From Bacteroidales bacterium (GTDB lineage: Bacteria; Bacteroidota; Bacteroidia; Bacteroidales; JAHJDW01): a stretch of 64,000 nucleotides of DNA. The stretch spans positions 6,255 through 70,254 of the forward strand of contig JBAZBZ010000011.1 of assembly GCA_041671145.1 (NCBI GenBank), read 5' to 3'. Made by a program: the position numbers and the translations under genes. Under the pieces are notes generated by a model. It saw only the letters and a list, made by a program, of their open reading frames with translations, ran no database searches and was not told the DNA's origin. Shown piece by piece: positions 14,449 to 29,756 of the stretch. The number at the start of each line of letters is the position of its first letter. The stretch's first letter is position 1.

Positions 14449-16506
14449 TTAATCTTGTTTATAAAATTCGCCAATAATTTTAAATTCAACTCTTCTGTTT
14501 TGTTGTCTTCCTTGCGGATTATCGGTTCCGTCAATATTCGTATTTGGAGCTAAGGGATTTGTTTTTCCACATCCTTTCGGAATTAAAAGCTTTTCACTGA
14601 TTCCCTTATCAACAAGATACTGTACGACACTATTGGCGCGATTTTGCGATAAAATCAGATTATATTGTTCGTCGCCTATACTGTCTGAATATGCCGCTAT
14701 TTCTACAATTGCATTTGGTAATTTTTTAAGAATGCTTACAAGATAATTTAATTCTTCCATCGATTCGGCTGTTAATGTTGCTTTATCAAATTCGAAATAA
14801 ATATTTTTCAGTGAATATGTTTTATTTTGTTCCGGTTTTTTCTTGAGGTTAAAATTCAACTTATAATTTTCAAGCTTGGTTAATCCTGTTGTGTTTATGC
14901 TGTATTGTTCATCAAAATATCCTTCTTCCGATACATTAAGCTGATAATTTGTATTAGGTTTTAATTTGAGAATAAATTCTTCATTGCTTAAAATCGAATC
15001 GGTTGATAAAATAGAAACCGTGTCGGTAATAACTGAGAGAGTGATTACGGAATTCGTAGGCACCTTTGAATCGGAATGTTGTTCAAATACTTTTCCTGTA
15101 ATGACAAATTCGTTATTATTAAGATATTGAAATTTATAAATATCATCACAGCATGTATTTCCTTCGTCGGTTGTATCATTTACAGCACGATTAGAACTAA
15201 AAAAACCCTCTTTGTTTTTTTCAGTGCCTGAGTTTATCAAAATATAATAAAAATCATCAACGCTTGAATTTATAGGACAACCGATATTCACAGCATCTTT
15301 CCATTTCGAAAGCGAACCATTAGAACTGAAAACATCAAGACCTCCTATGCTTTTCAATCCGTCGGAACTGAAATATAATGTTTCGTTTTTTTCGTCATAA
15401 AAAGGAGTGATTTCATTTCCGGGAGTGTTTATTTTTGTGCCGGAGTTCACCACTTCGGAATAATTATTCTTATTAGTTATGATAGAGTACCAGATATCAT
15501 AACCACCGTTTCCGCCAGGTCTGTCGGAAGAAAAATATAAAATTTCCTGAGTGCTGTCACTTGCACTAATTGAAATGTTTGGTTGTGTGGTTGAATATCC
15601 GGGATAATTAATTACATCAGGTAGTTTGACGGGCTCCTGCCATTTAAGGTTTTTAAATTCGCTTACATATAAATTACATATTGTTTTTGAATTATCATCG
15701 GTTTTACAACGTGTAAAATAAAATCTTTTTTTATCGGCTGAAAAAGTTCCATTGGCAGTATGTGCTTTTTCGCTGTTTAAAGTACTGTCAAATTCTTTTT
15801 TTAAAATATATTTTCCGTTATCATTTTTTTCGGCAAGATATAATTTTGTTTTGGGTAAACATAAATTATTATTTTCGGAACTGTTGAGCCGCAGAGATGA
15901 AAAAATAAGTTTGGTGCTGTCGAATGGTATTGCTGCGAAATCGGAATTTTCCCTGTTTATGCTTGTATCAAGATGCTCAATGATGACAGCGGATGAGTCA
16001 ATACTTGCTGCTAAAGCAAATTCACAATCTTTAATTTCTTTCTTAACGAGTTTTTTATAATACTGTGCATCCTGACCTTTATATGTTTTAGAGAACTCTG
16101 AAAAAGCATTTATTGCCGCTTTGTAATTTCCGTTATATTTCATCATTGAAGCGTATTTAAATTTTGCAAGCGGGTATGCATTGGGGTCAGAAAAGCAGGT
16201 TTCTTTATACCATATTTCCGCCTTTTTGTACTTGCGGAGATTGTAATATGACTCTGCAATGTTGTATGAAATATATGCTTTGTTGGGTTCAGTTTCGTAA
16301 ATTTTAAGATACAAGTCAACCGCAGCATTGTAATTCCCGTTAGTAAAAGCATAATCAGCAAGGCGGATAGTTTTAAATTTATTTGCTTTATTCTTTTTAT
16401 TAAAATTGAAAAGTTGTGCTGACGCATTGGAAAAGCAAAACGTTAAAACAAATAATATAAAAAATATATGTATTTTATTTTTGAGCATTTTTACAATCTT
16501 ATACAA
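14449..16506 (-). CDS. PorE-like OmpA family protein (TPR + beta-propeller + OmpA_C)
   Basis: N-terminal TPR. TolB/WD40-like repeats (FSSDR, GGYDIWYS, LYFSSDG). C-terminal OmpA motif NRRVEF. Lies directly after PorP/SprF. Confidence 0.7.
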   Translation of the reverse strand: MYKIVKMLKNKIHIFFILFVLTFCFSNASAQLFNFNKKNKANKFKTIRLADYAFTNGNYNAAVDLYLKIYETEPNKAYISYNIAESYYNLRKYKKAEIWYKETCFSDPNAYPLAKFKYASMMKYNGNYKAAINAFSEFSKTYKGQDAQYYKKLVKKEIKDCEFALAASIDSSAVIIEHLDTSINRENSDFAAIPFDSTKLIFSSLRLNSSENNNLCLPKTKLYLAEKNDNGKYILKKEFDSTLNSEKAHTANGTFSADKKRFYFTRCKTDDNSKTICNLYVSEFKNLKWQEPVKLPDVINYPGYSTTQPNISISASDSTQEILYFSSDRPGGNGGYDIWYSIITNKNNYSEVVNSGTKINTPGNEITPFYDEKNETLYFSSDGLKSIGGLDVFSSNGSLSKWKDAVNIGCPINSSVDDFYYILINSGTEKNKEGFFSSNRAVNDTTDEGNTCCDDIYKFQYLNNNEFVITGKVFEQHSDSKVPTNSVITLSVITDTVSILSTDSILSNEEFILKLKPNTNYQLNVSEEGYFDEQYSINTTGLTKLENYKLNFNLKKKPEQNKTYSLKNIYFEFDKATLTAESMEELNYLVSILKKLPNAIVEIAAYSDSIGDEQYNLILSQNRANSVVQYLVDKGISEKLLIPKGCGKTNPLAPNTNIDGTDNPQGRQQNRRVEFKIIGEFYKQD

Positions 16507-17513
16507 GGTATTGAAAATGGAATTTTATTTTTTCCTGATAAAAATTTATCGGTATAAATTATTGAAAATTCAAAACCTCCATTGAAATTAGTTGCCGGAT
16601 GCAGCTTTGAATTATTAATATCATAGCTAACGCAGACATCCCATTTTTCATATTTAATTCCTGTAATTACAATTATTGCATCTGATGTGCGATAAGCGGC
16701 GCCAATTGTAAAATTCAAAAAAACTCCGTTAGTGGTTTTAAAGATATATTCCAATCTGCTGCCAAGATTCAATTCTTTGGCTTTATTCTGCATAATAAAT
16801 AATATATCTGGTTTTATATTTATTTTTTCGTTAATGACTTTTTTCGCATTGAAGTATAATCCAAATAATAATGGCATTGGTGCAATATTTCCCGATAACG
16901 ATTCATTGGGCTTTGTTATGTGATGTACGGAAAATCCTCCGTTAATATTTAGATTACCGGGCTTTTGCAATTGGTAGGAAATCCCCGAACTCATATCGAA
17001 TTTACTGATGTTAAAATTCAAAGTGTTTTCTCCGCTTTGAATATTTGTGTTGAAATCACCAGCTAAATACTGACTTTCGAAAGATAATTTCGTAAAATCA
17101 ATTTTCTTCTGAAAAAAACCGGCTTGAAATCCTATTGATATTGAATGTTCTTTTTTTGCATCAAGTTTTTTGCAATATGATGTGCTTAACATAAACTGGA
17201 AATTACTCAAATGACCTTCACCGCTTCTGTCGTTAATAATTATCAGTCCTGCACCTATAGCATCATCTTTTAACCGGTCCTCAAGAAATTTTGAATCGAA
17301 AGAAATGGAGGAAGTTATATAAGGAACGGAAATGCTGTTCCATTGATTTCTGTAATTAGTAATAGCTCTCATGTTTCCATCAATATTTCCTGTGAGGGCT
17401 GGATTTAAAGACAGGGGAGAGTTATAAAATTGTGAAAAATGAATATCCTGACAAAAAATAAAATCAGAAACAAGCAATAAAAATAATAATAATATTTTAT
17501 TTGCATAGGGCAT
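16491..17513 (-). CDS. type IX secretion system membrane protein PorP/SprF family
   Basis: Signature QDIHFSQFYNSPLSLNPALTG. Start placed at the ATG at 17513 (MPYANKILLLF signal peptide), because the longer ORF-track N-terminus is encoded by heptamer repeats. Confidence 0.8.
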   Translation of the reverse strand: MPYANKILLLFLLLVSDFIFCQDIHFSQFYNSPLSLNPALTGNIDGNMRAITNYRNQWNSISVPYITSSISFDSKFLEDRLKDDAIGAGLIIINDRSGEGHLSNFQFMLSTSYCKKLDAKKEHSISIGFQAGFFQKKIDFTKLSFESQYLAGDFNTNIQSGENTLNFNISKFDMSSGISYQLQKPGNLNINGGFSVHHITKPNESLSGNIAPMPLLFGLYFNAKKVINEKINIKPDILFIMQNKAKELNLGSRLEYIFKTTNGVFLNFTIGAAYRTSDAIIVITGIKYEKWDVCVSYDINNSKLHPATNFNGGFEFSIIYTDKFLSGKNKIPFSIPCIRL

Positions 17514-17537
17514 AGGGCATAGGGCATGGGGCGTACA
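17503..17537. repeat. heptamer array (GCATAGG-like)x5
   Basis: gcatagg gcatagg gcatagg gcatggg gcgtaca, at the 5' end of the PorP/SprF gene. Confidence 0.85.
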
Positions 17538-17561
17538 GCTATATGTCAGCAATATTTTCTT

Positions 17562-17579
17562 AACTTTAAACATTAAACT
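17562..17579 (-). repeat. TTTAAAG-type element, partial copy
   Basis: AACTTTAAACATTAAACT, 9 nt after the stop of the giant PKD gene. Confidence 0.6.
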
Positions 17580-17587
17580 ATTTTAAT

Positions 17588-20500
17588 TTACCTTACTAAT
17601 GTTACATTTCCCTTTAATAATTTGGGAGTTGTTGAGCTTATCATTTTTGCCAGAATATAATAACTGTATGTTCCTTCTTCCTGTGGTTTACCTTTATAAG
17701 TGCCGTCCCAACCAGTATTTATATCATTTGTTTCGAATACCATTTCGCCCCATCTGTTGAAAATTCTGAACTCCAGTGATTGAATAACTCCGCTGTATAA
17801 TATTCTGAATTTATCGTTCCGTCCATCTCCATTAGGAGAAAATGCTTCGGGAACTTTTATGAAATCTTCGGAAGAAACATAAATAGTTTTGCGTATTGTA
17901 TCACTGCATCCGGAGCTGTTGAATGTTATAAGTGTAATAGTATATGTTCCGGATGTTTTATAAGTATAAATAGGATTTTTAAGAATCGAAGAATCACCAT
18001 TACCAAAATACCAAAGCCATCTGTTTCCATAAGAAGATATATTTCTGAAAATAATTGCAGGATTTGTCAAAGAAGGATTTATAGGATTGAAAGTAAAATC
18101 GGAAACAGGCCATTTGAATGCATTAATATGAATGATATTATTTTTTGTGCAAATATTATTGGCATATATTACATTCAAATTTACCATATAAGAACCTTGA
18201 TTTATAAAAGTGTGAGTTGTAATATTGCCTGTGCCGTTGTGTCCATCGCCGAAGTTCCACAGCCATGAGTTAACATATACTGATGTGTCGGAATTGTTTC
18301 CCGAAAATGTTAAACTAAAAGGAATACAGCCGGCAGTATCTTCGGGAGACAAAATAATAACGGGAGCTTTGTTAACTTTTATTGTTTTTGTTATGGTTGA
18401 TAAACAACCGATGTCGCTTAATGCGTAAAGAGAAATGTTATATTTACCCTGATTGCTGAATGAGTGAGTGGGTGATACGACAATGCTTGTATTTCCGTCT
18501 CCAAAATTCCATGTATATGAATCGGGAAAAATATGTGTTGTTGTATTTATTAGAGCCATATTTCCAGTGTTGCAAAATACAGTATCGTCAAGATTAAAAC
18601 CGGCAATAATATTTTCGAGATATATTTTTTCTGTTTTCGGAACTATATAAGTGCAACCGAGAGAATCCCGCAATAGTAAACTTGGAGTATATGTTCCGGG
18701 TTTTGAATAGAAATGTATTATGCTGTCTTTATTGCTTGATGAAGAACGATAAACAACGCTGCCATCACCAAAATCCCAAAAATAATCAATGGTGTTTTTG
18801 GTATTTGCAGCAAACAAAACCGTATCGGGGTTGCAAATTGAATCAGGATTGAAAGACAGATTTCCTACGGGTCCGCCTACCTTTACAAATGTGTTTTTTA
18901 TCAATGAGTCGGAACATCCTTCATTATTTGAAACAATTAATTTAACATCGAAATTACCAGAAGTAATAAATAGATGAGCTGCATTTTGCTGGTTTGAAAA
19001 GTTGCCATCGCCAAAATCCCAGTGCCATTGGTTTACATCGGAAGAAGACAAATCGAAAAAGATTACTGCTAATGGTGGACAATCTGTAGAAACAGGATTT
19101 CCGTTGAAGTTTGCAGTTGGCTTTTGTTTCATGAGTATATTACTCATCGTTTTTTTATGACTGCAACCCGATGAATCAGTTACTGTGAGAGAAACAGTAT
19201 ATGTTCCTATTGAGTTGTATTTATGTTTTGGATTTAAAACGCTACTTGTGGTGCCATCACCGAAATTCCATGAGTATGTTAGTTTATAACCCGAAGAAGA
19301 ATTCATAAAGAATAAAGAATCGCCATAGCAAAGGTTACTGTTTTGTATTGAAAAATTTGCTAAAGGTCTAATGTGTATGAGTTGTTTTTTTATAACAGTA
19401 TCTTCACATCCAAAGATATTTTTCACATAAAGTGTTACGGAATAATTACCGGAAATTGAATATGAATGAACAGGATTTTGAACTGTATCGAAAGGACTGC
19501 CATCGCCAAAGTCCCATCGCCATTTGGTTACCGTATAATCGGAAATTGTAGTATCTGTAAAAAAAACCGGAGCTCCGGGACATGCTGTGGTATTGCTGAC
19601 TGTAAATCCTCCTTTTATACCTGCTTTGCTAACGATTTTGATAGTGTCTGTTGATACATAAGTACAGACCAGAGTATCATTTTTTAAATCACCACAACAC
19701 AAATAATAAACGTTTACTTTCAATATGCGTTTTACAATATAAGTTCCGATGTCTTTATAGGTATGAATGGGATTTCTGTATGTGCCTTTAGTTCTCCCGT
19801 TGTGATTGCCATCATGGTTATGTTTGGGATAAATAATTGTATCGGTACCCGTAACTCTGTACGGGAAAATTATTTCGTTAATACCGGGAATATAATCCAA
19901 GAAATCATAATAAATAGAATATTGAACTTTATCATTAACAAGAGTATCACCATCACCAAATTCCCAGTAATATTGTTTTATTTCACCATAGAAACTTATA
20001 GAAGTATCTTTAAAATAAAATGTTATTCCCTGGCAGGTAGTATCTGCAGTGGGGGTAAACCCATTAACAACACTATCAATTACCAGCATATAATCCGGGT
20101 TACAATCGCCGCAGCCGCCAGTTTTTGAAGTGAAGTTTCTTGTTATAATGTTAAAACCATAACGTCCGGCTTTAGTAAAATTAATAAATGTAGTATCCAA
20201 AGGATTTAAGATGGTATTTATTCCCGTTTGTAAATCTGTCATTTTGAAATCAACTGTAGTATCAGCCCCGATGGAGCAGTCGTAAAAACCTAATTTTACG
20301 GGAGGATAGCAGGCAGCCATATCAGTAGTTGAACCTTCAGATGAATCAGGTCTGAGATGACATATTCCCGACCTGGGTTTTACATTCCATATTCTTTTAT
20401 ATATTGTATCATTACAACCGTTAAATCCTGCAACAAAAAAAATAGTATCCAAACCCATTGGTATATGTCCTGTATTGAAAACAGGATTTTGTACTTTAGA

Positions 20501-22336
20501 TGAGTCCATAAGTTTAAGTTTTAAATATGGAATGTATACAAAACTCCAGAACCAATTATTGGTATGGATTGAAGTATCGTTGAATCCTGATAGGTCCCAG
20601 GATTGATACCAATTATGAAAGCACAAAGTATCAACAGAAAATACAGAATTGAAACAATTGCCTGCTGGAGTAATTGTAAAATCAATGAAATCGGGCTTGA
20701 TTCCTGCTTTTATATAATCTGAAATTGCAAGTGTATCATTGCAACCATTAATTGTTTTTATTATTAAAGTAACTGAATATTTTCCGGTATCTGTATAAAT
20801 ATGAGTTGGGGTTGGCAGATTTGATGTTGTCCCGTCACCGAAATTCCATAAACGGAAATTTATAGCTTCAATAGAAATGCTTTTATCTGTGAACTGAACC
20901 TGTAACGGAATACAACCTTCAGTAGGAGTGGCTTCAAACTTTGCAATAGTTCTGACTATTGATATAACTTTTGTAATAGTATCAGTGCATCCGAAATTGT
21001 TTGTAACGATAAGTTTTACATTGAAGTTTTTGAACTTTACTGAGGAAGCAACAGAATATATATGAACCGGATTTTGAACTACTGAACTATCACCATCACC
21101 GAAAACCCAAAAATAACTTGAAATATTCGTGCCTGTGGAAGTATTTATAAAATTTACCTGAAACGGGGATGAACAAGAAATACTGTCAGCAGTGAAATTT
21201 GCCTTGGGTGGAATATATACTTTTGTTGTTGTATCCATACATCCATTGCCGATTGTGGATATCAGCGTTATAGTAAAAGGGGTTTTCAAATAATAATCAT
21301 GAGAAGGGTTTTGTATATTTGAGTTAAACCCATCGCTAAAACTCCAGTTCCACGATGAAGGAGACGGAGTTGATAAATCGTGAAAATTGACAATGAAAAA
21401 AGGGGCAACAGTATCGCAGTTGACGTCGTAAATGAAATCTGTTTTATAATTTTTTACAATTAAATCTTTCGGAAATGTATCTCTGCATCCTATGTTATCT
21501 GTAACAATCAAGTTGACTTTAAAAGTGTCGGCTGTATTGTAAATATGTGTCGGATTTACCGCAATAGAAATTGTACCATCGCCAAAATTCCATCGGTATG
21601 ATAGCTTGTCACCGCTTGATGAATCAATAAAAATAACATTTGCCGGAGGTGCGCAGCCAACAATGGAATCGTTAAAATGAGCTTTTGGTTTATGTACTTT
21701 TATGTAATTGTTGATAAAGAAAAAATTCTGACAACCGTTAGCATCTTTAACTATAAGATAAACGGTATAATTGCCTGCCGAGTCATAGGTATGTGTTGGG
21801 TTTTGTGAAGTTGAATAACTTCCGTCTCCGAAATTCCAGAACCAGCTTGTAATGACACTTGATTGCGGAACTGATGCATCGGTGAAATTAACCTTGAAGG
21901 GTGCACAGCCAGCAGTATCTTTTGTATTAAATTTACTTTCAGGCGATGAATATGCTCTGATATAATAAGGTTTTATTAAAGTATCACTTCCGGAAATATT
22001 AGATGCTACAAGCTTTACCGTATATGCACCCGGCGTGACATAAAATGATGTCGGATTTTGCAGAATCGAAGTGTTTCCATTACCGAAATCCCAAAACCAT
22101 GATGTGGGATTGCCTGTCGACAAATCAGTAAACTGAATGATGGCTGGTGTGCATTCAACTGTTTTGTCGGAAGAAAAAATAGCAGTTGGCTGAGCAAAAA
22201 GGAATGATGTTATAAATAGAAGAAAAAATGAAAGTATGAGTTTTATTGACTGACTGTACGAACTACTCCGGGCGTTCTTAAAAAAAATATTATGAGCTTT
22301 CATATTCATTGTTGTCAATCTGATAAAATAAAACAT
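17588..22336 (-). CDS. giant multi-PKD surface protein with T9SS type B (gliding-associated) C-terminal domain
   Basis: About 14 W.FGDG PKD signatures. C-terminal PEAFSPNGDGRNDKF...GWDGTYKG motif of the type B CTD. Start may be Met10 or Met12. Confidence 0.85.
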   Translation of the reverse strand: MFYFIRLTTMNMKAHNIFFKNARSSSYSQSIKLILSFFLLFITSFLFAQPTAIFSSDKTVECTPAIIQFTDLSTGNPTSWFWDFGNGNTSILQNPTSFYVTPGAYTVKLVASNISGSDTLIKPYYIRAYSSPESKFNTKDTAGCAPFKVNFTDASVPQSSVITSWFWNFGDGSYSTSQNPTHTYDSAGNYTVYLIVKDANGCQNFFFINNYIKVHKPKAHFNDSIVGCAPPANVIFIDSSSGDKLSYRWNFGDGTISIAVNPTHIYNTADTFKVNLIVTDNIGCRDTFPKDLIVKNYKTDFIYDVNCDTVAPFFIVNFHDLSTPSPSSWNWSFSDGFNSNIQNPSHDYYLKTPFTITLISTIGNGCMDTTTKVYIPPKANFTADSISCSSPFQVNFINTSTGTNISSYFWVFGDGDSSVVQNPVHIYSVASSVKFKNFNVKLIVTNNFGCTDTITKVISIVRTIAKFEATPTEGCIPLQVQFTDKSISIEAINFRLWNFGDGTTSNLPTPTHIYTDTGKYSVTLIIKTINGCNDTLAISDYIKAGIKPDFIDFTITPAGNCFNSVFSVDTLCFHNWYQSWDLSGFNDTSIHTNNWFWSFVYIPYLKLKLMDSSKVQNPVFNTGHIPMGLDTIFFVAGFNGCNDTIYKRIWNVKPRSGICHLRPDSSEGSTTDMAACYPPVKLGFYDCSIGADTTVDFKMTDLQTGINTILNPLDTTFINFTKAGRYGFNIITRNFTSKTGGCGDCNPDYMLVIDSVVNGFTPTADTTCQGITFYFKDTSISFYGEIKQYYWEFGDGDTLVNDKVQYSIYYDFLDYIPGINEIIFPYRVTGTDTIIYPKHNHDGNHNGRTKGTYRNPIHTYKDIGTYIVKRILKVNVYYLCCGDLKNDTLVCTYVSTDTIKIVSKAGIKGGFTVSNTTACPGAPVFFTDTTISDYTVTKWRWDFGDGSPFDTVQNPVHSYSISGNYSVTLYVKNIFGCEDTVIKKQLIHIRPLANFSIQNSNLCYGDSLFFMNSSSGYKLTYSWNFGDGTTSSVLNPKHKYNSIGTYTVSLTVTDSSGCSHKKTMSNILMKQKPTANFNGNPVSTDCPPLAVIFFDLSSSDVNQWHWDFGDGNFSNQQNAAHLFITSGNFDVKLIVSNNEGCSDSLIKNTFVKVGGPVGNLSFNPDSICNPDTVLFAANTKNTIDYFWDFGDGSVVYRSSSSNKDSIIHFYSKPGTYTPSLLLRDSLGCTYIVPKTEKIYLENIIAGFNLDDTVFCNTGNMALINTTTHIFPDSYTWNFGDGNTSIVVSPTHSFSNQGKYNISLYALSDIGCLSTITKTIKVNKAPVIILSPEDTAGCIPFSLTFSGNNSDTSVYVNSWLWNFGDGHNGTGNITTHTFINQGSYMVNLNVIYANNICTKNNIIHINAFKWPVSDFTFNPINPSLTNPAIIFRNISSYGNRWLWYFGNGDSSILKNPIYTYKTSGTYTITLITFNSSGCSDTIRKTIYVSSEDFIKVPEAFSPNGDGRNDKFRILYSGVIQSLEFRIFNRWGEMVFETNDINTGWDGTYKGKPQEEGTYSYYILAKMISSTTPKLLKGNVTLVR

Positions 22337-22349: not shown

Positions 22350-22357
22350 CAAATATA
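22350..22357 (-). promoter_or_regulatory. Bacteroidota sigma-A -7 box (TATATTTG) for the giant PKD gene
   Basis: Exact TAnnTTTG on the minus strand, 13 nt upstream of the first ATG. Confidence 0.4.
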
Positions 22358-22540: not shown

Positions 22541-22672
22541 ACTGTGATAATTCAAAGCTGTATTACCCATTAATTTTAATTTCTCTTTTTAATAAGGCAC
22601 CATAAATATAGTAAAGTTGCCTGAGAAAAATATTTTTTTAACCGGTAGGTTTTTAGCATAGTATTACTAAAA
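22541..22672 (-). pseudogene. relic of the ECF sigma gene 5' end (promoter + leader + ATG joined to codons ~85-94)
   Basis: 22581..22672 matches 26381..26465 with about 6 mismatches. 22543..22570 matches 26098..26126 inside the sigma CDS (MVNTALNYH). The ~240 bp between these blocks is absent. Confidence 0.6.
22593..22621 (-). promoter_or_regulatory. ECF-type promoter-like motif P3 (variant -10) inside the sigma-gene relic, upstream of the giant PKD gene
   Basis: Minus strand reads GGCAAC-N15-GTGCCTTA, one T-to-C change from P1. About 256 nt upstream of the start at 22336. Confidence 0.35.
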
Positions 22673-22695
22673 TTTCAAAGTTTAGTAAAGCTAAT

Positions 22696-22723
22696 AAAAA
22701 AACCCGCAGGAATTTCCTGCAGG
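22696..22723 (-). terminator. intrinsic terminator after the PKD/T9SS type A gene
   Basis: Minus strand reads CCTGCAGGAAATTCCTGCGGG followed by TTTTTTT. 6-bp GC-rich stem plus 2 further pairs. 35 nt after the stop. Confidence 0.65.
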
Positions 22724-22757
22724 TTCTTTGCACTGACAATCGAAACAAGAAGTTTTT

Positions 22758-24017
22758 CTATTTTACAATCATTATTTTTTCTTGAATTGTATTACTTTCC
22801 AAAACAACAGAAAGAGTATAATACCCTGCCGGAAGTGTTGAAACATCAACTATGATATTTTTTGAATTAACTTTTTCATTATATACTTCCCTGCCTGTAA
22901 TATCTGTAATTTTCAGTTCTCCCTGTATTGACTGACTTAACGAAACTTCTATCCTGTTATTAGAAGGATTTGGGAAAACAGAATTCAGAGAAACTGTATT
23001 TTCTCTAATACCTGCTGCTGCATCCACAACTATAAGTTGTTGAATAAAACCTGATTCTCCTCTGTTGGCTTTGGTTGTTTCACATGTAGAACTGCTGCAT
23101 CCATTGGCATCAGTAATGGTTAAGCATATATTATAATGACCGGGAGTAGCATAAGTATGCGATGGATATTGCAGTGTGGAAGTACTTCCATCACCAAAAT
23201 CCCAAAGATAGCTGAATGGAGCAGTGCCTGTTACAGAAGGGTAGGCATACCATAATAATGAATTTGTACCACTACTATCTTGCACTAAATATATGTCTGC
23301 ATTGCAATTATTCTGTCCGTTTCCAATAACAATTGTATTGCAATACGCATCACTGCATACTACATTTTGTTGATTTGAAATTTCAGATACTGTCAGACAA
23401 ACATTAAATGTGCCGGTAGTTGAATAAATATGGCTCGGATTTTGAATATTTGATGTTGTACCATCACCAAAATCCCATACCCAATTATTTATGTTGCTGC
23501 TTGATGATGTACTGTTAAAATAATATGTGTTATTAATATTAACAGAATCCTTATAAGAAATAAATGAAGCAACACAGTTTCCGGTCGGGATGGAATCGTT
23601 TCCATTATCATTGCCAACTATCACATTACTGCAATACGTGTCACTGCATATTATATTTTGCAGATTAGAAATTTCAGATACTGTCAGACAAACATTAAAT
23701 GTGCCGGTAGTTGAATAAATATGGCTCGGATTCTGGATATTTGATGTTGTACCATCACCAAAATCCCATACCCAATTATTTATGTTGCTGCTTGATGATG
23801 TACTGTTAAAATAATATGTGTTATTAACAGAATCTTTTTGATAAATAAATGAAGCAATACAAGCGGAGTCATTTCCATTCGGGATGGAGTCATTTCCGCC
23901 TTTTAGCGTTTTCATGGAGGTTGAATTAAAATCAACCCTGTTGTTTGCGGTATAACCGCTTGCTATAATTCCTGTAAATATCAGGTTTAACAGCAACTTT
24001 AGAATAATCTTTTTCAT
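22758..24017 (-). CDS. PKD-domain protein with T9SS type A sorting domain
   Basis: Three WDFGDG PKD units, two of them near-identical. C-terminal FPNPSNNRIEV...GYYTLSV CTD. Signal peptide present. Confidence 0.8.
   Translation of the reverse strand: MKKIILKLLLNLIFTGIIASGYTANNRVDFNSTSMKTLKGGNDSIPNGNDSACIASFIYQKDSVNNTYYFNSTSSSSNINNWVWDFGDGTTSNIQNPSHIYSTTGTFNVCLTVSEISNLQNIICSDTYCSNVIVGNDNGNDSIPTGNCVASFISYKDSVNINNTYYFNSTSSSSNINNWVWDFGDGTTSNIQNPSHIYSTTGTFNVCLTVSEISNQQNVVCSDAYCNTIVIGNGQNNCNADIYLVQDSSGTNSLLWYAYPSVTGTAPFSYLWDFGDGSTSTLQYPSHTYATPGHYNICLTITDANGCSSSTCETTKANRGESGFIQQLIVVDAAAGIRENTVSLNSVFPNPSNNRIEVSLSQSIQGELKITDITGREVYNEKVNSKNIIVDVSTLPAGYYTLSVVLESNTIQEKIMIVK
23377..23827 (-). repeat. tandem in-frame duplication of a PKD module inside the type A CTD gene
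   Basis: 23377..23536 and 23668..23827 differ at 2 of 160 nt (offset 291 nt). The full unit is about 291-297 bp and spans about 23334-23900. Confidence 0.9.
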
Positions 24018-24059
24018 TTTTTTAAGTTTTTAGTGATTAATGATTTTTAATTTCATCAA

Positions 24060-24087
24060 TAAGACACTAACTTTTAAAAAGGTTGCC
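24060..24087 (-). promoter_or_regulatory. ECF-type promoter-like motif P2 upstream of the PKD/T9SS type A gene
   Basis: Minus strand reads GGCAAC-N14-GTGTCTTA. Shares the plus-strand 14-mer GTTGCCTGAGAAAA and 10-mer AATAAGACAC with P1. 42 nt upstream of the ATG at 24017. Confidence 0.45.
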
Positions 24088-24110
24088 TGAGAAAATAAAA
24101 AAAGAATTTA

Positions 24111-25775
24111 TTAGAATTTAAAATTCACACCGGCATTTAATCCTGCCGATTTTATTTTTTGATTTATCCCAAATGAATTTTTGAAGATAGAATTAAACGT
24201 ACAATTGAATGAAGGTTCCGCAACAATACTTATTTTATCATTTAACTTATAACAAAAGCCCAACCTGCATATAAAATTAAAGAAATTGCTTTGGAAAGGG
24301 AAATAATTTTTATTAAAATCAACTACTTCTTTTAAATCGGTTGAAATAATTTTGCCTTTTGAAGAAAGATAAAATGCAACTGACGCTCCCATGGTAACCC
24401 GCAATGTAAATTTGTTCTTTCCAAATTCGTATCCGATGAGCAAAGGTATTTCAAAATACCTTAATGAGTTTATTGACTTTATGTTTTCATCTTTCGATAC
24501 AGGTGAGCTAATGTGTTTCCAATTACTATCTAACATTGGTAAATTTTGATTGGTGCTATCATAGCCAATTGTATCAATTTTCAAAAAACTTTTACTTGTA
24601 TCATAACCTGTGATTTTATTTATTGAAAATTTACTTTTTGTTATATATTCAGAATAGTTAATTCCACTTTTAATAAAAAACTTTTTGATATTATATTTTG
24701 CTTCTGCTCCAAAAGAATATGATAATGCTGGTTTTTCATATTCTTTTATTTTATTTATATAATCTTTAAATTCAACAGAAGACAAAGTATTAATTGCACA
24801 AAACGGAGAACCATAAATATCAACAGAAAATTTATTTTTACGAACGTAATCTGCAGGTAATGGTGGATTATTCTGAGTGATGCTTGTTGAGTCGGATTTA
24901 ACATTAGTTAAAGTGTCTTTTTGTGATTTTTTGTTTTCTGCAGGCAAATTATTTTGAGGTTGTTGTTGATTTGAAACTTCATTTGGATTATTCGTCTTTT
25001 CATTATTTTCTTTACTTGTTATATTATTTGTGTTTGGAATATTGTTAGTAATAGTATTTGTTTTAATTATCGGTTTTTTATTACTCGTTTTCGTGGAAGC
25101 AACATTTTTTTTATTTGTACTGGAATTAGAATTTCTTGACTTGGTTTCATTATTATTTGTTTTATCAATCCCGGCAGTTGATTTAGTTTCTTTAAACATT
25201 TTCTTCTTTTCTGTATTGCCTGCAACAAATGGCTTTTCATTTGCCTTTCCTGATTGCTTTTTAATGTTTTTCTCGTTCTTTGTTGTTTTGGATTCAGTAT
25301 TTATTTCAGCAGATTCTGTTTTTGTTTTTTCTTTTCCCGCTTTTAAATTGCCTGATTTTTCGGCACTTTGCTTTCCTTCATTTCTTTCTATTTCAATATT
25401 TTCGGTATTATTACCTTTAGCATTGTTTGAAAAAGTTGCGTTTACAGCTTTTTTCTGAATTGCATCATGATTAGTTTCATTTGATGAATTTTTAATGCTG
25501 AAATTTCTTGAAATAAGAACTTTGTTATAAGCAGTATTAACATTTGATTTGGCATTATAGCTAAAATAAGTAGTTGCACAGAAAGAAAATATTATAAGAA
25601 TATCAACTATCTCAAATAAAAACAAATTTGTGCCATTTAAAAATCCTTTTGTCAAAATCTTTTTAAGGAATAAATCTTTTTTTACTCCTTTCAAAAGCCC
25701 GGAACCGGGTTCGACGCGATAGTTTTCCAAACCTCCTTTAAAAAACTTATCTATATTTTCTAAATCATTTTTCAT
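24111..25775 (-). CDS. anti-sigma-like membrane protein with low-complexity linker and C-terminal outer-membrane beta-barrel-like domain
   Basis: ATGA start/stop overlap with the ECF sigma gene. One TM segment at about residues 50-72. ~230-aa N/K/T/S-rich linker. C-terminal alternating-strand domain with RYFEIPLLIGYEFG, ending ...GVNFKF. Confidence 0.5.
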   Translation of the reverse strand: MKNDLENIDKFFKGGLENYRVEPGSGLLKGVKKDLFLKKILTKGFLNGTNLFLFEIVDILIIFSFCATTYFSYNAKSNVNTAYNKVLISRNFSIKNSSNETNHDAIQKKAVNATFSNNAKGNNTENIEIERNEGKQSAEKSGNLKAGKEKTKTESAEINTESKTTKNEKNIKKQSGKANEKPFVAGNTEKKKMFKETKSTAGIDKTNNNETKSRNSNSSTNKKNVASTKTSNKKPIIKTNTITNNIPNTNNITSKENNEKTNNPNEVSNQQQPQNNLPAENKKSQKDTLTNVKSDSTSITQNNPPLPADYVRKNKFSVDIYGSPFCAINTLSSVEFKDYINKIKEYEKPALSYSFGAEAKYNIKKFFIKSGINYSEYITKSKFSINKITGYDTSKSFLKIDTIGYDSTNQNLPMLDSNWKHISSPVSKDENIKSINSLRYFEIPLLIGYEFGKNKFTLRVTMGASVAFYLSSKGKIISTDLKEVVDFNKNYFPFQSNFFNFICRLGFCYKLNDKISIVAEPSFNCTFNSIFKNSFGINQKIKSAGLNAGVNFKF

Positions 25776-26371
25776 TTTACTATAATATTAGTTAAATGAT
25801 TTTTATTTTCAAATTTAAAGTACTCATTTACTTTTTTCTTTAAATAATTTCTTGCTTTAAATAATTGCGATTTTGATGTGCTTTCGGTTATTCCAAGCAT
25901 TTCGGCAATTTCCTTGTGTCCGTATTCTTCAAAAACATAAAGGTTAAATACGGCTCTGTAACCTTCGGGTAAACTCTGAATTATTTCGAGCAACTCTTTT
26001 TCACTTAGTATTGCTTCTTCGTAATTTTCTTCTTCCACTTCTAATTTGTCTTCAATTTCATCAATATCCTTATGGAAGAAATGCTTAAGATTATCCCTGT
26101 GATAATTCAAAGCTGTATTAACCATTATTTTCTTCATCCATCCTTCGAAAGAACCTTCAAACTTGTAATCTTTTATTTTTAAAAATATTTTCACAAAACC
26201 CTCCTGTGCAATATCTTCGGCTTCATCTTTATTTCTCGAATATCTCATGCAAATAACCAGCATAGTTGGTGCATACCTGTCGAAAAGCATGGTTTCAAAA
26301 CTACGCTTTCCAGCCATACATCCCTCAATTAAAACCTTATCGTCTAACTGTATTCTTTCTGAAATACTCAT
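25772..26371 (-). CDS. RNA polymerase ECF-type sigma-70 family factor
   Basis: Region 2 (DEAEDIAQEGFVKIF, W.KKIMVNTALNYHR) and region 4 (LPEGYRAVFNLYVFEEYGHKEIAEMLGITESTSKSQL). Confidence 0.85.
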   Translation of the reverse strand: MSISERIQLDDKVLIEGCMAGKRSFETMLFDRYAPTMLVICMRYSRNKDEAEDIAQEGFVKIFLKIKDYKFEGSFEGWMKKIMVNTALNYHRDNLKHFFHKDIDEIEDKLEVEEENYEEAILSEKELLEIIQSLPEGYRAVFNLYVFEEYGHKEIAEMLGITESTSKSQLFKARNYLKKKVNEYFKFENKNHLTNIIVK

Positions 26372-26393
26372 TAACTTATATTTCTCTTTTTAA

Positions 26394-26422
26394 TAAGACA
26401 CCATAAATATAGTAAAGTTGCC
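26394..26422 (-). promoter_or_regulatory. ECF-type promoter-like motif P1 upstream of the sigma/anti-sigma operon
   Basis: Minus strand reads GGCAAC-N15-GTGTCTTA, ending 22 nt before the sigma ATG. No TAnnTTTG box nearby. Confidence 0.5.
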
Positions 26423-26473
26423 TGAGAAAAATATTTTTTTAACTGGTAGTGTTTTAGTATGAGACAACCTCTG

Positions 26474-27922
26474 TCAAATAGGTGCTATGAAATGCAGAAA
26501 AACTGCCGATTCGCCAAGCATATTTATAGAATATTCCAAGCGGAAAACCTTATCGTAATATGTTACAAAATCAATACCTATGCCACCGCCGTATATGAAT
26601 GTATTTGAAAGAGGATTGTTTCGCTTTAATTGCTCATCTGATACATAAGCGGCGTCACCGAATAAATTCACGTATAAAGCATAATGTATAGTATTAAATT
26701 TTTCGGTTTTTATGAAATTGAATTTATGAATTCTTGTTGGTAAAAGTGCATATTTAAAGTTCGATTTATATAATGCAAAATGTTGTCCATCCATCACGTA
26801 GTATTCAAATGAACGAACAAAGTCGTTTCCATAACCTAATGATTTCTGAATGTAATATGGCTGAAATGATTTATTAGAAATCTTAGCGCTCAAACTGTTT
26901 GCAAAATATAACCTTTTACTTATAGTGAAATATTCACAGAACGAAGTATTGATATATGTTATGTAGAGATTATTATCATTTATTATGCCTATTCCGTCTT
27001 TTGTCAGACTAATATCAAAATAATAACCACTTAAAGGATATGCTTTCGAATCCCTGCAATCTCTTTTATAAAGATAACTCAGTGATAAGTATTCTCTCTG
27101 AGTTTTACCATTATTAATATATTCTTTGCTTAAAACTGATAGTGAATCTGAGATTCTGGTATTATTATAATAAATTTCAAGATTATGTGTGTTGTAAATT
27201 CCTTGCCTGTATGAATAAATTATTTCTCCTTCATAATCAATTCTTGCAAAGCGTTGGTGCTCCCTGAAATATACAAGTTTATTACTTGTAGAGGTATAAG
27301 GTATTTCGTGAAAGCGTGAATGAGCAAAAGAAACGCTAATGCCGCTTCTCTGATTTTTATTCAAATAAGGAATTTTATACGAAAATCCGTATTCTTCTTC
27401 GTAGCCCATTTTTACAAGAAATTTAAGTATTTCTTTTCTTCCCCTGAAATTTTCTCTTACGAGAAAAAGTCCGTAGTTAGTGCGACTCAAATCTTTTTCT
27501 TCGAGCCATGTATTAAAGTTTCTGTCGGCAATTTCAAACAGGGGATACGGCCATGTGTACCATCTCTCAATAACATTTATTCTAAGTGTTACTTTTTTGT
27601 TTTCTTTAATATTATAATCAATGTTTACAAAATTGAACAATGATGTATTTAAAAGGTTTTCCCTGCTCGTCTTTATGTATTTGCCGAACATTATTTTCCC
27701 GACAGTATCATTTTCTTTATACTGAAGCTCGCGCAATATTATATGCCTTCTTGTGATATTGTTGCCGGTAATGATTATACTATCTATTATATAATATTCA
27801 TCTGTAGATTTATCGGGAAAAATTTTCCCTGTAGCATTATTTAGAGCAATATCCTGCGATTTTAAAAAAAAAGTAAAAAACAAAAAAAATACAATGATAA
27901 ATATTGGAATTATTCTTTTCAA
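26474..27922 (-). CDS. Omp85/BamA-family outer membrane protein (POTRA + surface-antigen barrel)
   Basis: Signal peptide. POTRA-like IIDSIIITGNNITRRHIILREL. Beta-rich C-terminus ending in an aromatic-rich strand. Confidence 0.6.
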   Translation of the reverse strand: MKRIIPIFIIVFFLFFTFFLKSQDIALNNATGKIFPDKSTDEYYIIDSIIITGNNITRRHIILRELQYKENDTVGKIMFGKYIKTSRENLLNTSLFNFVNIDYNIKENKKVTLRINVIERWYTWPYPLFEIADRNFNTWLEEKDLSRTNYGLFLVRENFRGRKEILKFLVKMGYEEEYGFSYKIPYLNKNQRSGISVSFAHSRFHEIPYTSTSNKLVYFREHQRFARIDYEGEIIYSYRQGIYNTHNLEIYYNNTRISDSLSVLSKEYINNGKTQREYLSLSYLYKRDCRDSKAYPLSGYYFDISLTKDGIGIINDNNLYITYINTSFCEYFTISKRLYFANSLSAKISNKSFQPYYIQKSLGYGNDFVRSFEYYVMDGQHFALYKSNFKYALLPTRIHKFNFIKTEKFNTIHYALYVNLFGDAAYVSDEQLKRNNPLSNTFIYGGGIGIDFVTYYDKVFRLEYSINMLGESAVFLHFIAPI

Positions 27923-28886: not shown

Positions 28887-29609
28887 ATGACAAAGTTAAG
28901 TATCAACATAAATAAAATAGCAACACTCCGAAATGCAAGAGGAGGAAATCTGCCAGATGTTATTAAGGTTGCTATTGACTGCGAAAGATTCGGTGCCGAT
29001 GGAATTACCGTTCACCCGCGTCCCGATGAGAGGCACATTAAATATAAAGATGTTTATGATTTGAAAGATGTGTTAAAAACCGAATTCAATATTGAAGGAT
29101 ATCCATCAGAAAAATTCATAAAGCTTGTTTGCAATGTTAAACCTGCTCAGGTTACTTTAGTTCCCGACCCTCCCGATGCCATCACTTCAAACGCAGGATG
29201 GAATACAAAATTGAATAAAAAATTTCTATCAGATATTATTGAGAAATTTAAAAATGAAAATATAAGAGTTTCAATATTCATTGACCCTATTGTGGAAATG
29301 CTCGAAAATGCTGTGGAAACCGGTACCGACAGAATTGAATTATATACCGAAGCTTTTGCAAAAGATTTTTATTCCAATAGGGAAAAAGCAATAAAGCCAT
29401 ATATAGAAGCTGCAAAATATGCCAACGAACTCGGATTCGGAATTAACGCAGGACATGATTTGAATATCGACAATCTGAATTATTTCGCAAAAAATATCCC
29501 ATCTCTCCTCGAAGTTTCCATAGGTCATGCTTTAATCTCCGATGCTATTTATTTTGGATTGGAAAATACAATTAAAATGTATTTGAATAGTTTAAAGTTT
29601 AAGGTCTAA
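28887..29609 (+). CDS. pdxJ: pyridoxine 5'-phosphate synthase
   Basis: [32 protein letters not shown] and GHDLN motifs. The last 6 codons and the stop lie inside a 32-nt repeat. Confidence 0.9.
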
Positions 29610-29620
29610 AGTTTAAAGTT
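29589..29620 (+). repeat. 32-nt TTTAAAG-type element, copy A
   Basis: AGTTTAAAGTTTAAGGTCTAAAGTTTAAAGTT. Contains the pdxJ stop codon. Confidence 0.9.
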
Positions 29621-29756
29621 TTGCGAAATTTCGCATTTGTCAATATTTCTTGGCAGTTTGCAGTTGAATATTTTTTTAAGTTTCTCGCAGAGCCGCAAAG
29701 TTTTTCTTTGTTTGACTTTTGACCCGTTAGGCAATTGTTAATGTTGAATGACCAAT

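What the first reader, a model, noticed from the sequence alone, without database searches (positions are those of the whole stretch)
22593..26422. Same ECF-type promoter-like motif three times: before the sigma operon, the PKD type A gene and the giant PKD operon
The plus-strand 14-mer GTTGCCTGAGAAAA and the 10-mer AATAAGACAC lie 14-15 nt apart at 26392-26430 and 24058-24095. At 22591-22629 the 10-mer is AATAAGGCAC. On the coding (minus) strand these read GGCAAC-N14/15-GTGTCTTA. That fits the generic ECF layout: an AAC-containing -35, a spacer of about 15-17 nt, and a GTC-containing -10. The first copy ends 22 nt from the sigma start, which fits autoregulation. The second lies 42 nt upstream of the PKD gene, where I found no TAnnTTTG housekeeping box.
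Basis: seen in the sequence. Interest (0 to 1): 0.7.

Follow-up and report, generated by a model that had tools for sequence, protein, structure and literature searches.

The report
Autoregulated ECF sigma promoter, three copies
A two-part DNA motif found three times is most likely the promoter read by the neighbouring alternative sigma factor, which would switch on its own operon and the adjacent secreted PKD protein; this is a well-supported but ordinary bacterial gene switch, and the third copy is a damaged duplicate.

Summary
TTTTCTCAGGCAAC-N14/15-GTG(T/C)CTTATT occurs three times on the minus strand and nowhere else in the 64 kb; none is expected by chance.

The ECF-promoter reading is strongly supported for two copies: the one before the sigma gene and the one before the PKD/T9SS type-A gene.
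- The same GCAAC(C)-N-GTCT motif lies 20-60 nt upstream of sigma homologues across Bacteroidota.
- A second copy sits behind the anti-sigma gene in at least five other genomes.
- In the closest relative, that promoter and its leader are as conserved as the sigma gene, although the downstream gene is unrelated.

[quoted passage not shown] The system is therefore a new member of a known kind. Its apparent targets are T9SS-secreted PKD proteins rather than NigD lipoproteins.

The third copy is not independent. It lies in a ~100-nt duplicate of the sigma promoter fused to a 36-nt relic of the sigma gene. Its -10 carries T>C at a position that is T in every family site I compiled. It lies 256 nt from the giant gene, which has its own housekeeping-type box. 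Whether it still fires cannot be told. No transcription-start data exist.

The parts
26394..26430 (-). Promoter P-sigma: extended -35 TTTTCTCAGGCAAC (26430-26417), 15-nt spacer, -10 GTGTCTTA (26401-26394). Predicted start about 26388-26391, giving a 5'UTR of about 17-20 nt.
   Evidence: PWM score 24.2 bits against a shuffle maximum of 18.7. The equivalent site is conserved upstream of sigma homologues. The start position is inferred from ECF promoter geometry.
25772..26371 (-). ECF (group 4) sigma factor, 199 aa.
   Evidence: PF04542 and PF08281. TIGR02937 scores 97.3 bits against a cut-off of 42.9. 6788 homologues at E<=1e-10.
24111..25775 (-). [quoted passage not shown] Conserved N-terminal ~45 aa, TM helix at about residues 51-69, a 240-aa N/K/T/S-rich tether, and a C-terminal outer-membrane beta-barrel. 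Its start overlaps the sigma stop by 4 nt.
   Evidence: AF2 model of residues 316-554: pLDDT 84.8, all-beta. Foldseek top hits are Ail, OpcA, NspA, OmpX, OmpA and Pla. Orthologues hit PF13568. Family described in PMC10927553.
24060..24095 (-). Promoter P2: extended -35 TTTTCTCAGGCAAC (24095-24082), 14-nt spacer, -10 GTGTCTTA (24067-24060). Predicted start about 24054-24057, giving a 5'UTR of about 37-40 nt.
   Evidence: Best PWM score in the window, 27.2 bits. Promoter core 90.5% identical to L001, while the downstream genes are unrelated. Equivalent sites in L060, L007, L009 and L019.
22758..24017 (-). Target gene: 419-aa protein with 3 PKD domains and a T9SS type-A C-terminal sorting domain.
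   Evidence: PF18911 E 9e-47; PF18962 E 1.4e-11; TIGR04183.
22697..22729 (-). Intrinsic terminator-like hairpin (15-pair stem plus T run), 29 nt after the PKD gene stop.
   Evidence: sequence.
22664..22690 (.). 27-nt palindrome CTTTACTAAACTTTGAAATTTTAGTAA. In relative L001 it flanks the sigma/anti-sigma/cargo module on both sides.
22593..22629 (-). Promoter copy 1: a duplicate of P-sigma with a variant -10, GTGCCTTA (22600-22593). Activity is uncertain.
   Evidence: Part of the 91%-identical repeat. The -10 sub-score drops from 10.0 to 5.7 bits; total 19.9 against a shuffle maximum of 18.7.
22542..22577 (-). Relic of a second sigma gene. The start-codon region is fused to codons ~80-91 (M-G-N-T-A-L-N-Y-H, compare MVNTALNYH in the intact gene). 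No similarity continues beyond it.
   Evidence: (D18).
22350..22357 (-). TATATTTG, a match to the Bacteroidota housekeeping -7 box TAnnTTTG, 13 nt before the first ATG of the giant ORF.
   Evidence: The box as such occurs at chance frequency in the window (112 found, 114 expected), so it is only a candidate.
17588..22336 (-). Giant 1582-aa protein with 13 PKD domains and a T9SS type-B sorting domain. Possible third target.
   Evidence: PF18911 (13 stretches), PF13585, TIGR04131 57.2 bits against a cut-off of 35. Signal-peptide-like N-terminus.
16491..17573 (-). PorP/SprF-family T9SS outer-membrane protein, downstream of the type-B cargo gene.
   Evidence: TIGR03519 195 bits against a cut-off of 90.55; PF11751.
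14449..16506 (-). PorE-like TPR/WD40/OmpA protein, last gene of the putative giant operon. It overlaps the PorP gene's 3' end.
   Evidence: NF052230 scores 328 bits, below its cut-off of 600; PF00691.

Best explanation
The motif is most likely the cognate promoter of the ECF sigma factor at 25772-26371.

**Proposed mechanism**
1. At rest, the sigma factor is held at the inner membrane by the N-terminal ~45 residues of the co-translated 554-aa anti-sigma factor. That protein has Dma-type architecture: one TM helix, a ~240-aa disordered tether across the periplasm, and a C-terminal outer-membrane beta-barrel.
2. [quoted passage not shown]
3. Free sigma plus core RNA polymerase recognises TCAGGCAAC (-35) and GTGTCTTA (-10). 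AAC and GTC are 16-17 nt apart.
4. Transcription starts a few bases downstream at two places.
   - P-sigma (26394-30) re-expresses sigma and anti-sigma, a feedback loop.
   - P2 (24060-95) transcribes the PKD/T9SS type-A surface protein up to the strong terminator at 22697-22729.

**The third copy (22593-22629)** is what remains of a recent duplicate of the module: promoter plus a fragment of the sigma gene. Its -10 core is GCC instead of GTC. It is probably weakened and may or may not still connect the giant PKD/PorP/PorE operon to this sigma.

**Shown:** sequence, duplication structure, protein architectures, and cross-genome conservation of both promoter positions.
**Inferred:** sigma binding, transcription start sites, the signal, and proteolytic release (the last by analogy with Das1/Dma1 and EcfO/Reo).
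For: **Motif in the window**
- 3 matches against 0 expected. They are the top three PWM scores in the window, using a matrix built without window sites.
- Copies 2 and 3 share only the two blocks, with unrelated spacers of 14 and 15 nt. This is the pattern of a bipartite promoter, not of a repeat element.

**Conservation before sigma homologues**
- Upstream of 49 sigma homologues, CAAC-N15-18-GTC occurs in 12 loci against a 1.4% background (p = 4e-12). GCAAC occurs in 25 against 9.8% (p = 3e-13).
- Across 55 loci (1.66 Mb, both strands), 19 of 29 PWM hits of 18 bits or more end within -120..+40 of the sigma start, on the coding strand.
- Examples: L001 TTCAGGCAAC-N15-GTGTCTTA; L060 TTCAGGCAAC-N14-GAGTCTTA; L078 and L080 TCAGGCAACC-N14/15-AAGTCTAA.

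**Second site behind the anti-sigma gene**
- Present in L001, L060, L007, L009 and L019.
- The -10 variant is the same at both sites within a genome. It is GTCTTA in the window, L001 and L060, and GTTA in the L007/L009/L019 group.

**Footprint against L001**
- The P2 intergenic region is 82.5% identical (core 90.5%). Compare the sigma gene at 82.9%, the anti-sigma C-terminus at 70%, and a downstream gene that is unrelated.

**Scans of public collections**
- Every exact-pattern hit in low-GC, Bacteroidota-like contigs that has an ORF close behind it lies 6-63 nt upstream, in the right orientation, of a gene with a signal-peptide-like or T9SS-cargo product (L060, L067/L071, L074, L075, L086, L092). 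L087 is the same but cut by the contig end.

**Proteins and literature**
- Sigma/anti-sigma identity.
- ECF sigmas usually autoregulate, and their motifs are found upstream of their own genes (PMC3817407).
Against: - There are no transcription-start or expression data for this uncultured organism.
- The source genome is not in the searchable collections, so its genome-wide motif distribution could not be examined.
- Bacteroidota carry many ECF paralogues with similar AAC/GTC promoters, so assigning the motif to this sigma rests on linkage and conservation.
- The PWM enrichment is partly circular, because many upstream sites were used to build the matrix. One search, which used simple patterns, is not circular.
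- About half of the homologue loci show no clear motif at the threshold used.
- Copy 1 has C at a -10 position that is T in every family site I compiled (about 30), and it is not an independent occurrence.
Confidence: 0.78

Rival explanations
1. All three copies are fully active promoters of one regulon. On this reading, duplication of the sigma promoter has wired the giant PKD type-B adhesin/PorP/PorE operon to the same sigma factor, with a ~250-nt leader.
For: - The -35 block and spacer of copy 1 are identical to P-sigma.
- No terminator-like site lies between copy 1 and the giant ORF, whereas a strong terminator upstream insulates it from P2.
- Its total PWM score of 19.9 still exceeds all shuffles.
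- The giant gene is the same kind of product (PKD, T9SS cargo) as the conserved target of these modules.
Against: - The -10 is GTGCCTTA. The T that is lost is present in every family site I compiled, and the -10 sub-score falls from 10.0 to 5.7 bits.
- The copy sits in a decaying duplicate next to a sigma pseudogene fragment.
- It is 256 nt from the ORF, whereas the TATATTTG box lies 13 nt before it.
- The relative L001 has no promoter copy at the equivalent position.
Confidence: 0.35
2. The motif is read by a different regulator: another ECF paralogue encoded elsewhere in the genome, or a DNA-binding protein. Its position next to this sigma gene would then be incidental.
For: - ECF promoters of different groups share AAC/GTC cores, and cross-talk is known (PMC3817407).
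- Bacteroidota average about 22 ECF sigmas per genome (PMC7826278).
- The sigma-promoter match itself was not tested.
Against: - The motif stays with the sigma gene across homologues of 37-80% identity in many families of Bacteroidota.
- The lineage-specific -10 variant changes at both sites together.
- No other ECF sigma gene turned up among the window ORFs scanned against Pfam.
- The two-block layout with a variable spacer sequence and fixed spacing is that of a sigma-factor promoter, not of a palindromic operator.
Confidence: 0.07
3. The copies are merely repeated DNA (duplication debris or a small mobile element) without promoter function.
For: Copies 1 and 3 are indeed part of a ~100-nt segmental duplication.
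Against: - Copy 2 shares only the two short blocks with copy 3.
- Both positions are conserved in distant genomes, where flanking DNA and even the downstream gene differ.
Confidence: 0.03

Closest known systems
[quoted passage not shown]
   Same: - An ECF sigma gene is immediately followed by an anti-sigma gene.
- The anti-sigma product has a short N-terminal sigma-binding region, one TM helix, a long disordered periplasmic tether and a C-terminal outer-membrane beta-barrel (OMP_b-brl_2).
- The family is restricted to Bacteroidota.
- The regulon is small and includes the gene adjacent to the pair (nigD2 in B. thetaiotaomicron; the PKD gene here).
   Different: - The apparent targets here are T9SS-secreted PKD proteins, not NigD lipoproteins.
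- I found no promoter motif for Das1 in the papers I could read, so the motifs could not be compared.
- Nothing here is experimentally tested.
EcfO/Reo of Bacteroides fragilis and Phocaeicola vulgatus (PMC9308784, PMC13114119; the original 2013 J Bacteriol paper is not held)
   Same: - The same sigma/anti-sigma architecture.
- The pair is strongly self-induced on envelope stress (a 33-fold rise of the sigma gene), which is what an autoregulatory promoter predicts.
   Different: - Its regulon is nigD paralogues and LPS-related genes.
- It comes from gut Bacteroidaceae, whereas this is an environmental Bacteroidales lineage with T9SS cargo targets.
SigP with PorXY in Porphyromonas gingivalis, and the SM6 ECF-type motif of Flavobacterium psychrophilum (PMC4800418, PMC9723704)
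   Same: An ECF sigma factor is linked to the type IX secretion world. In F. psychrophilum, promoters with an ECF-type -10 precede T9SS genes and a sigma/anti-sigma pair.
   Different: - Those systems control T9SS machinery genes, and SigP is controlled through the PorXY two-component system.
- Here the targets are cargo proteins and control is by a Dma-type anti-sigma factor.
Escherichia coli sigma-E/RseA and other RpoE-like ECF systems (own knowledge; general principle in PMC3817407)
   Same: An autoregulated operon of sigma plus membrane anti-sigma, and a promoter with an AAC-containing -35 and a GTC-containing -10 about 16-17 nt apart.
   Different: RseA ends in the periplasm and is controlled by DegS/RseP and RseB. 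The -35 here is GGCAAC rather than GGAACTT.
FecI/FecR/FecA cell-surface signalling
   Same: Information from the outer membrane is passed to an ECF sigma factor through a membrane-spanning anti-sigma factor.
   Different: The outer-membrane receptor and the anti-sigma factor are separate proteins, and FecI-like sigmas do not autoregulate (PMC3817407). Here one polypeptide spans both membranes and the sigma gene carries its own motif.

Membership tests
ECF (group 4) sigma-70 factors | Only sigma-2 and sigma-4 domains, about 200 aa | tested here: met
   PF04542 (E 7e-14) and PF08281 (E 2e-17). TIGR02937 scores 97.3 bits against a cut-off of 42.9. 199 aa.
ECF-type promoter | -35 with AAC, -10 with GTC/CGT, about 16-17 nt between AAC and GTC | tested here: met
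   GGCAAC-N15-GTGTCTTA puts 17 nt between AAC and GTC; the N14 copy puts 16 nt. Copy 1 has GCC instead of GTC, so it does not meet the -10 criterion.
ECF-type promoter | Motif conserved upstream of orthologous sigma genes (the autoregulation signature used by Staron 2009 and Rhodius 2013) | tested here: met
   (p about 1e-12).
ECF-type promoter | Sigma-dependent transcription start 5-10 nt downstream of the -10 | not testable with these tools
   No transcript data are available, and Rfam gave nothing in the window.
[quoted passage not shown] | Encoded next to, and co-transcribed with, an ECF sigma gene | tested here: met
   A 4-nt ATGA overlap at 25772-25775. The same coupling is seen in most homologous loci.
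[quoted passage not shown] | N-terminal ~40 aa cytoplasmic region that binds the sigma factor | tested here: inconclusive
   A conserved N-terminal motif (I/L)D.LF+..L....PS..W is shared by partners in about 40 loci. Binding itself is not testable here. No comparison with the Dma1 or Reo sequence was possible.
[quoted passage not shown] | Single alpha-helical TM segment after the N-terminal region | tested here: met
   Kyte-Doolittle maximum of 2.1 at residues 51-69. This is the highest-scoring 19-residue window in the protein.
[quoted passage not shown] | Long intrinsically disordered periplasmic tether | tested here: met
   Residues 75-315 are 58% N+K+T+S with mean hydropathy -1.49. This is judged by composition only; no disorder predictor was run.
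[quoted passage not shown] | C-terminal outer-membrane beta-barrel (OMP_b-brl_2, 8 strands in Dma1) | tested here: met
   AF2 model with pLDDT 84.8 and pTM 0.73, all-beta. Foldseek probability 1.0 to Ail, OpcA, NspA, OmpX, OmpA and Pla. PF13568 is hit by orthologues but not by the window protein itself at E<=0.01. The strand number was not counted.
ECF21 group of the ECF classification | Assignment by the group HMM (ECF Hub) and the group-specific promoter logo | not testable with these tools
   No ECF-group HMMs are available. Membership is inferred only from the statement that ECF21 sigmas are encoded next to Dma proteins (PMC13088901). TIGR02985 (96 bits, cut-off 126) and NF058625 (83 bits, cut-off 130) are below their cut-offs.
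T9SS cargo (targets) | C-terminal sorting domain of type A or type B; type B followed by a PorP/SprF gene | tested here: met
   PKD419: PF18962 and TIGR04183. Giant protein: TIGR04131 at 57.2 bits against a cut-off of 35, plus PF13585, followed by a TIGR03519 PorP/SprF gene.

The most novel reading that the evidence does not exclude
The triad of sigma gene, Dma-type anti-sigma gene and PKD/T9SS-cargo gene is a self-contained surface-signalling cassette. On this reading, the secreted PKD protein is not only the target. It also reports back to the beta-barrel of the anti-sigma factor at the cell surface, much as a receptor and anti-sigma factor do in Fec-type signalling. In one relative the barrel is a PorP/SprF domain, the kind that anchors T9SS cargo.

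Such cassettes would multiply by tandem duplication. When the duplicated sigma/anti-sigma genes decay, the orphaned promoter would keep a new adhesin operon (here the giant type-B PKD/PorP/PorE operon) under the surviving sigma factor.
Probability: 0.2. Interest if true: 0.65.

Novelty: new member of a known kind. Interest (0 to 1): 0.42.

Why it matters
Dma-type anti-sigma factors were recognised only in 2024. They are known functionally from gut Bacteroides, where their regulons are NigD lipoproteins and their signals are unknown.

This locus and its relatives contribute three things:
- A concrete promoter consensus for a large branch of the associated sigma factors: TCAGGCAAC(C)-N13-15-G(T/A)GTCTTA.
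- A compact predicted regulon: the sigma operon itself plus the neighbouring gene.
- A recurrent, previously unremarked link to T9SS-secreted PKD surface proteins.

The consensus makes regulon prediction in environmental Bacteroidota straightforward. It also suggests a simple heterologous test system of sigma factor plus a 60-bp promoter.

The relic promoter is a small but clean example of how module duplication and decay can rewire a regulon. In itself, an autoregulated ECF promoter with an adjacent target is textbook biology.

Tried and rejected
- **Source genome.** Exact-pattern scans of genome contigs and metagenome contigs did not find the source genome, so its genome-wide regulon could not be mapped. 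Only a 2.6-kb contig of the same organism turned up (L077). The MAG of the closest relative has only the two known sites.
- **Published promoter motifs.** I looked for one for ECF21, Das1 or EcfO. None is in PMC10927553, PMC13088901, PMC13114119 or PMC9308784. The ECF re-classification paper has no held supplements. The 2013 EcfO paper is not held.
- **Validated B. thetaiotaomicron promoters.** I could not fetch the das1/nigD loci for lack of a query sequence, so the motif was not tested on experimentally validated targets.
- **RNA families.** Rfam found nothing in the window.
- **E. coli-type promoter scan.** It gave chance-level hits and is irrelevant for Bacteroidota.
- **Orphan motif copies in other genomes.** I checked whether those in L083 and L081 are followed by sigma relics, as in the window. 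They are not.
- **Other ECF sigma genes in the window.** None was found among the ORFs scanned.
- **L001's 307-aa gene.** It has no Pfam match, including NigD, and no similarity to PKD419.
- **Rejected: the motif as a repeat element.** Only the two blocks are shared between copies 2 and 3.
- **Rejected: the motif as a housekeeping promoter.** There is no TAnnTTTG box at the right place.

Full report
**1. Observation**

On the minus strand the window contains TTTTCTCAGGCAAC-N15-GTGTCTTATT at 26392-26430, the same blocks with a 14-nt spacer at 24058-24095, and TTTTCTCAGGCAAC-N15-GTGCCTTATT at 22591-22629. The pattern GGCAAC-N13-17-GTGYCTTA has exactly these three matches in 64 kb. None of 100 dinucleotide-preserving shuffles gave any match. 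So is the absence of a TAnnTTTG box in those two intergenic regions.

**2. Gene context (all on the minus strand)**

Pfam and NCBIfam give this order:
- Omp85/BamA-like gene, 26474-27922.
- [Motif copy 3.]
- ECF sigma factor, 25772-26371. It has sigma-2 and sigma-4 domains, and TIGR02937 is above its cut-off.
- A 554-aa protein with no Pfam hit, 24111-25775. Its start overlaps the sigma stop by 4 nt.
- [Motif copy 2.]
- A 419-aa protein with three PKD domains and a T9SS type-A sorting domain, 22758-24017.
- A strong terminator-like hairpin, 22729-22697.
- [Motif copy 1.]
- A 1582-aa protein with 13 PKD domains and a T9SS type-B sorting domain, 17588-22336.
- A PorP/SprF gene, 16491-17573.
- A PorE-like OmpA-family gene, 14449-16506.

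**3. The three copies are not independent**

Copies 1 and 3 lie in a longer repeat: 22558-22653 matches 26359-26455 at 91% identity. In copy 1 this is followed by 36 nt that match an internal piece of the sigma gene (22542-22577 vs 26097-26131, 94%). No similarity continues after that. Copy 1 is therefore the promoter of a second, recently duplicated sigma gene that has since been almost entirely deleted.

Copies 2 and 3 share only the 15-nt and 10-nt blocks, with unrelated spacers. That is what a bipartite promoter looks like, and it is not what a repeated element looks like.

**4. Comparative test of the promoter reading**

The sigma protein retrieved 59 loci from one-genome-per-species contigs. 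Further loci came through protein homologues.

*Upstream of the sigma gene.* Many homologues of 37-80% identity, from Bacteroidales, Cytophagales, Saprospiraceae and others, carry (T/G)GCAAC(C) followed 14-17 nt later by (G/A/T)TCT(A/T).
- With simple patterns, CAAC-N15-18-GTC is present in 12 of 49 upstream regions against 1.4% of background windows (p = 4e-12). GCAAC is present in 25 of 49 against 9.8% (p = 3e-13).
- With a two-block matrix, 19 of the 29 hits of 18 bits or more in 1.66 Mb fall within -120..+40 of a sigma start on the coding strand. This second figure is partly circular, because many of those sites built the matrix.
- The closer homologues have the extended -35 of the window. 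L001 (80% identity) has TTCAGGCAAC-N15-GTGTCTTA. L060, a Marinifilum MAG (50%), has TTCAGGCAAC-N14-GAGTCTTA. L078 and L080 (57% and 55%) have TCAGGCAACC-N14/15-AAGTCTAA.

*The second site.* It is conserved too.
- In L001 it lies just behind the anti-sigma gene.
- In L060 an exact TCAGGCAAC-N14-GTGTCTTATT lies between the anti-sigma gene and a PKD/CarboxypepD_reg/T9SS gene.
- In L007, L009 and L019 (46-51% identity), both the sigma-proximal site and the site before the PKD gene use GGCAACC with a GTTA-type -10. The two sites thus share the same lineage-specific -10 variant. This counts as one evolutionary event, not three.

*Footprint against L001.* The P2 intergenic region is 82.5% identical, with the core at 90.5%. 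The sigma gene is 82.9% identical, the anti-sigma C-terminus 70% and the Omp85-like gene 72%. The downstream genes are unrelated: a 419-aa PKD protein in the window and a 307-aa protein without domains in L001. The promoter and leader therefore belong to the sigma module, while the cargo gene has been exchanged.

*Public collections.* In scans of 596 Gb of genomes and of the JGI metagenomes, the exact patterns gave numbers of hits close to chance. However, every hit in a low-GC, Bacteroidota-like contig that has an ORF close behind it lies 6-63 nt upstream of, and co-oriented with, a gene for a product with a signal-peptide-like N-terminus or a T9SS sorting domain (L060, L067/L071, L074, L075, L086, L092). 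L087 is the same but is cut by the contig end. The high-GC hits lack such a context and look random.

**5. What the system is**

The genes following the sigma homologues encode proteins with a conserved N-terminal ~40 residues, (I/L)D.LF+..L....PS..W, and one TM helix at about residues 45-70. They are usually translationally coupled to the sigma gene. The long versions end in PF13568 (OMP_b-brl_2). One ends in a PorP/SprF domain instead.

The window protein has:
- a hydrophobic peak at residues 51-69;
- a 240-residue N/K/T/S-rich stretch;
- a C-terminal 239 residues that AlphaFold2 models with pLDDT 84.8 as an all-beta domain. Foldseek matches this domain to small outer-membrane barrels: Ail, OpcA, NspA, OmpX, the OmpA transmembrane domain and Pla.

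- Dma1 of B. thetaiotaomicron binds its ECF21-type sigma Das1 with its first 40 residues and spans both membranes.
- Loss of Dma1 induces BT_1287, nigD1 and nigD2, and nigD2 lies next to das1.
- EcfO/Reo of B. fragilis and P. vulgatus are orthologues. The P. vulgatus pair is strongly self-induced under envelope stress (PMC9308784, PMC13114119).

I found no promoter motif in these papers. ECF-group assignment of the window sigma could not be tested here.

**6. A recurrent triad**

Among sigma homologues of about 46-60% identity that have a Dma-like partner, the next gene is very often a PKD/CarboxypepD_reg protein with a T9SS sorting domain. This holds for L002, L007, L009, L011, L019, L060, L081 (twice), L082, L083 and L084 (twice). 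In L081, L084 and L082 the modules stand in tandem.

This makes the origin of copy 1 easy to picture: a tandem duplication of the module followed by deletion of the second sigma/anti-sigma pair.

A 27-nt palindrome may have served as the recombination point. It flanks the module on both sides in L001. In the window it sits just upstream of copy 1, and it is absent from the window's own P-sigma region. This step is inference.

I found no paper that links Dma systems with T9SS cargo.

**7. Is copy 1 alive?**

Its -35 block and spacer are intact, but its -10 is GTGCCTTA. The T that is lost is present in all the family sites I compiled, about 30. The -10 sub-score drops from 10.0 to 5.7 bits, and the total of 19.9 is only just above the best shuffle at 18.7.

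From established knowledge of ECF -10 recognition, the GTC core is the most constrained part of such promoters, so a weakened or dead promoter is likely.

Other considerations:
- The copy lies 256 nt from the giant ORF. A TATATTTG box lies 13 nt before that ORF's first ATG. Such boxes occur at chance frequency in this AT-rich DNA, so this is only a candidate.
- In favour of residual function, no terminator-like site lies between copy 1 and the ORF, and the strong terminator just upstream insulates the region from P2.

I put about 35% on copy 1 being an effective promoter.

**8. Verdict**

The ECF-promoter and autoregulation interpretation is well supported for two sites and uncertain for the third.

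The system is a Das/Dma-type sigma/anti-sigma module, a known kind. What is new is modest:
- a usable consensus for this branch;
- a predicted regulon of T9SS PKD surface proteins;
- an example of module duplication leaving an orphan promoter in front of a giant adhesin operon.

Nothing here has been tested at the RNA level.

Noticed in passing
window 22664-22690; L001 9883-9909 and 13259-13285: A 27-nt palindrome, CTTTACTAAACTTYGAAAKTTTAGTAA. In L001 it flanks the sigma/anti-sigma/cargo module on both sides. In the window it occurs once, between the terminator and promoter copy 1. Its function is unknown; it could be a recombination point or an operator.
   Followed up: partly
L081 4478-11964; L084 1356-10012; L082 8001-12973: The triad of ECF sigma, Dma-like anti-sigma and PKD/CarboxypepD_reg/T9SS-CTD protein recurs widely in Bacteroidales contigs. 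In L081 and L084 it stands as two tandem modules; in L082 one full module is followed by a second sigma gene and a 192-aa ORF.
   Followed up: partly
L029 5635-7515: The anti-sigma-like partner of a 39%-identical sigma homologue ends in a PorP/SprF domain (PF11751, E 6e-15) instead of OMP_b-brl_2. This would be an anti-sigma factor fused to a T9SS cargo-anchoring barrel.
   Followed up: no
L083 13581-13612; L081 11961-11992: High-scoring copies of the motif (25.7 and 19.0 bits) lie just after the module's cargo gene. No ORF and no sigma relic follows them. They may be orphan promoters or drive small transcripts.
   Followed up: partly
window 26474-27922 (-): An Omp85/BamA-like gene (POTRA plus Omp85) lies directly upstream of the sigma operon. 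Among the loci compared it is conserved only in L001. The Dma authors asked how such proteins are inserted into the outer membrane.
   Followed up: no
window 23336-23536 and 23627-23827: A 291-nt tandem duplication (95% identity) inside the PKD419 gene, that is, a very recent PKD-domain duplication.
   Followed up: no
window 29589-29637 and 29740-29788: A 49-nt inverted repeat (82% complementary) built of AAGTTTAA-like units. It lies between the convergent 240-aa gene (28887-29609) and the 909-aa gene.
   Followed up: no
window 29793-32522 (-); 13144-14370 (-): Further T9SS cargo genes lie nearby: a gingipain-like C25 peptidase with a T9SS sorting domain, and a BNR/Ycf48-like protein with a type-A sorting domain. 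Neither has the motif upstream.
   Followed up: partly
L077 1-2631 (Logan SRR18595301): The same organism occurs in a second public sample. That contig ends inside the repeated promoter at one end and in the PKD repeats at the other, which is consistent with assembly breaks at these repeats.
   Followed up: no
window 59208-59241 (-): A perfect extended -35 (TTCAGGCAACC) without a -10, inside the 412-aa ORF 59069-60307. Most likely chance.
   Followed up: no
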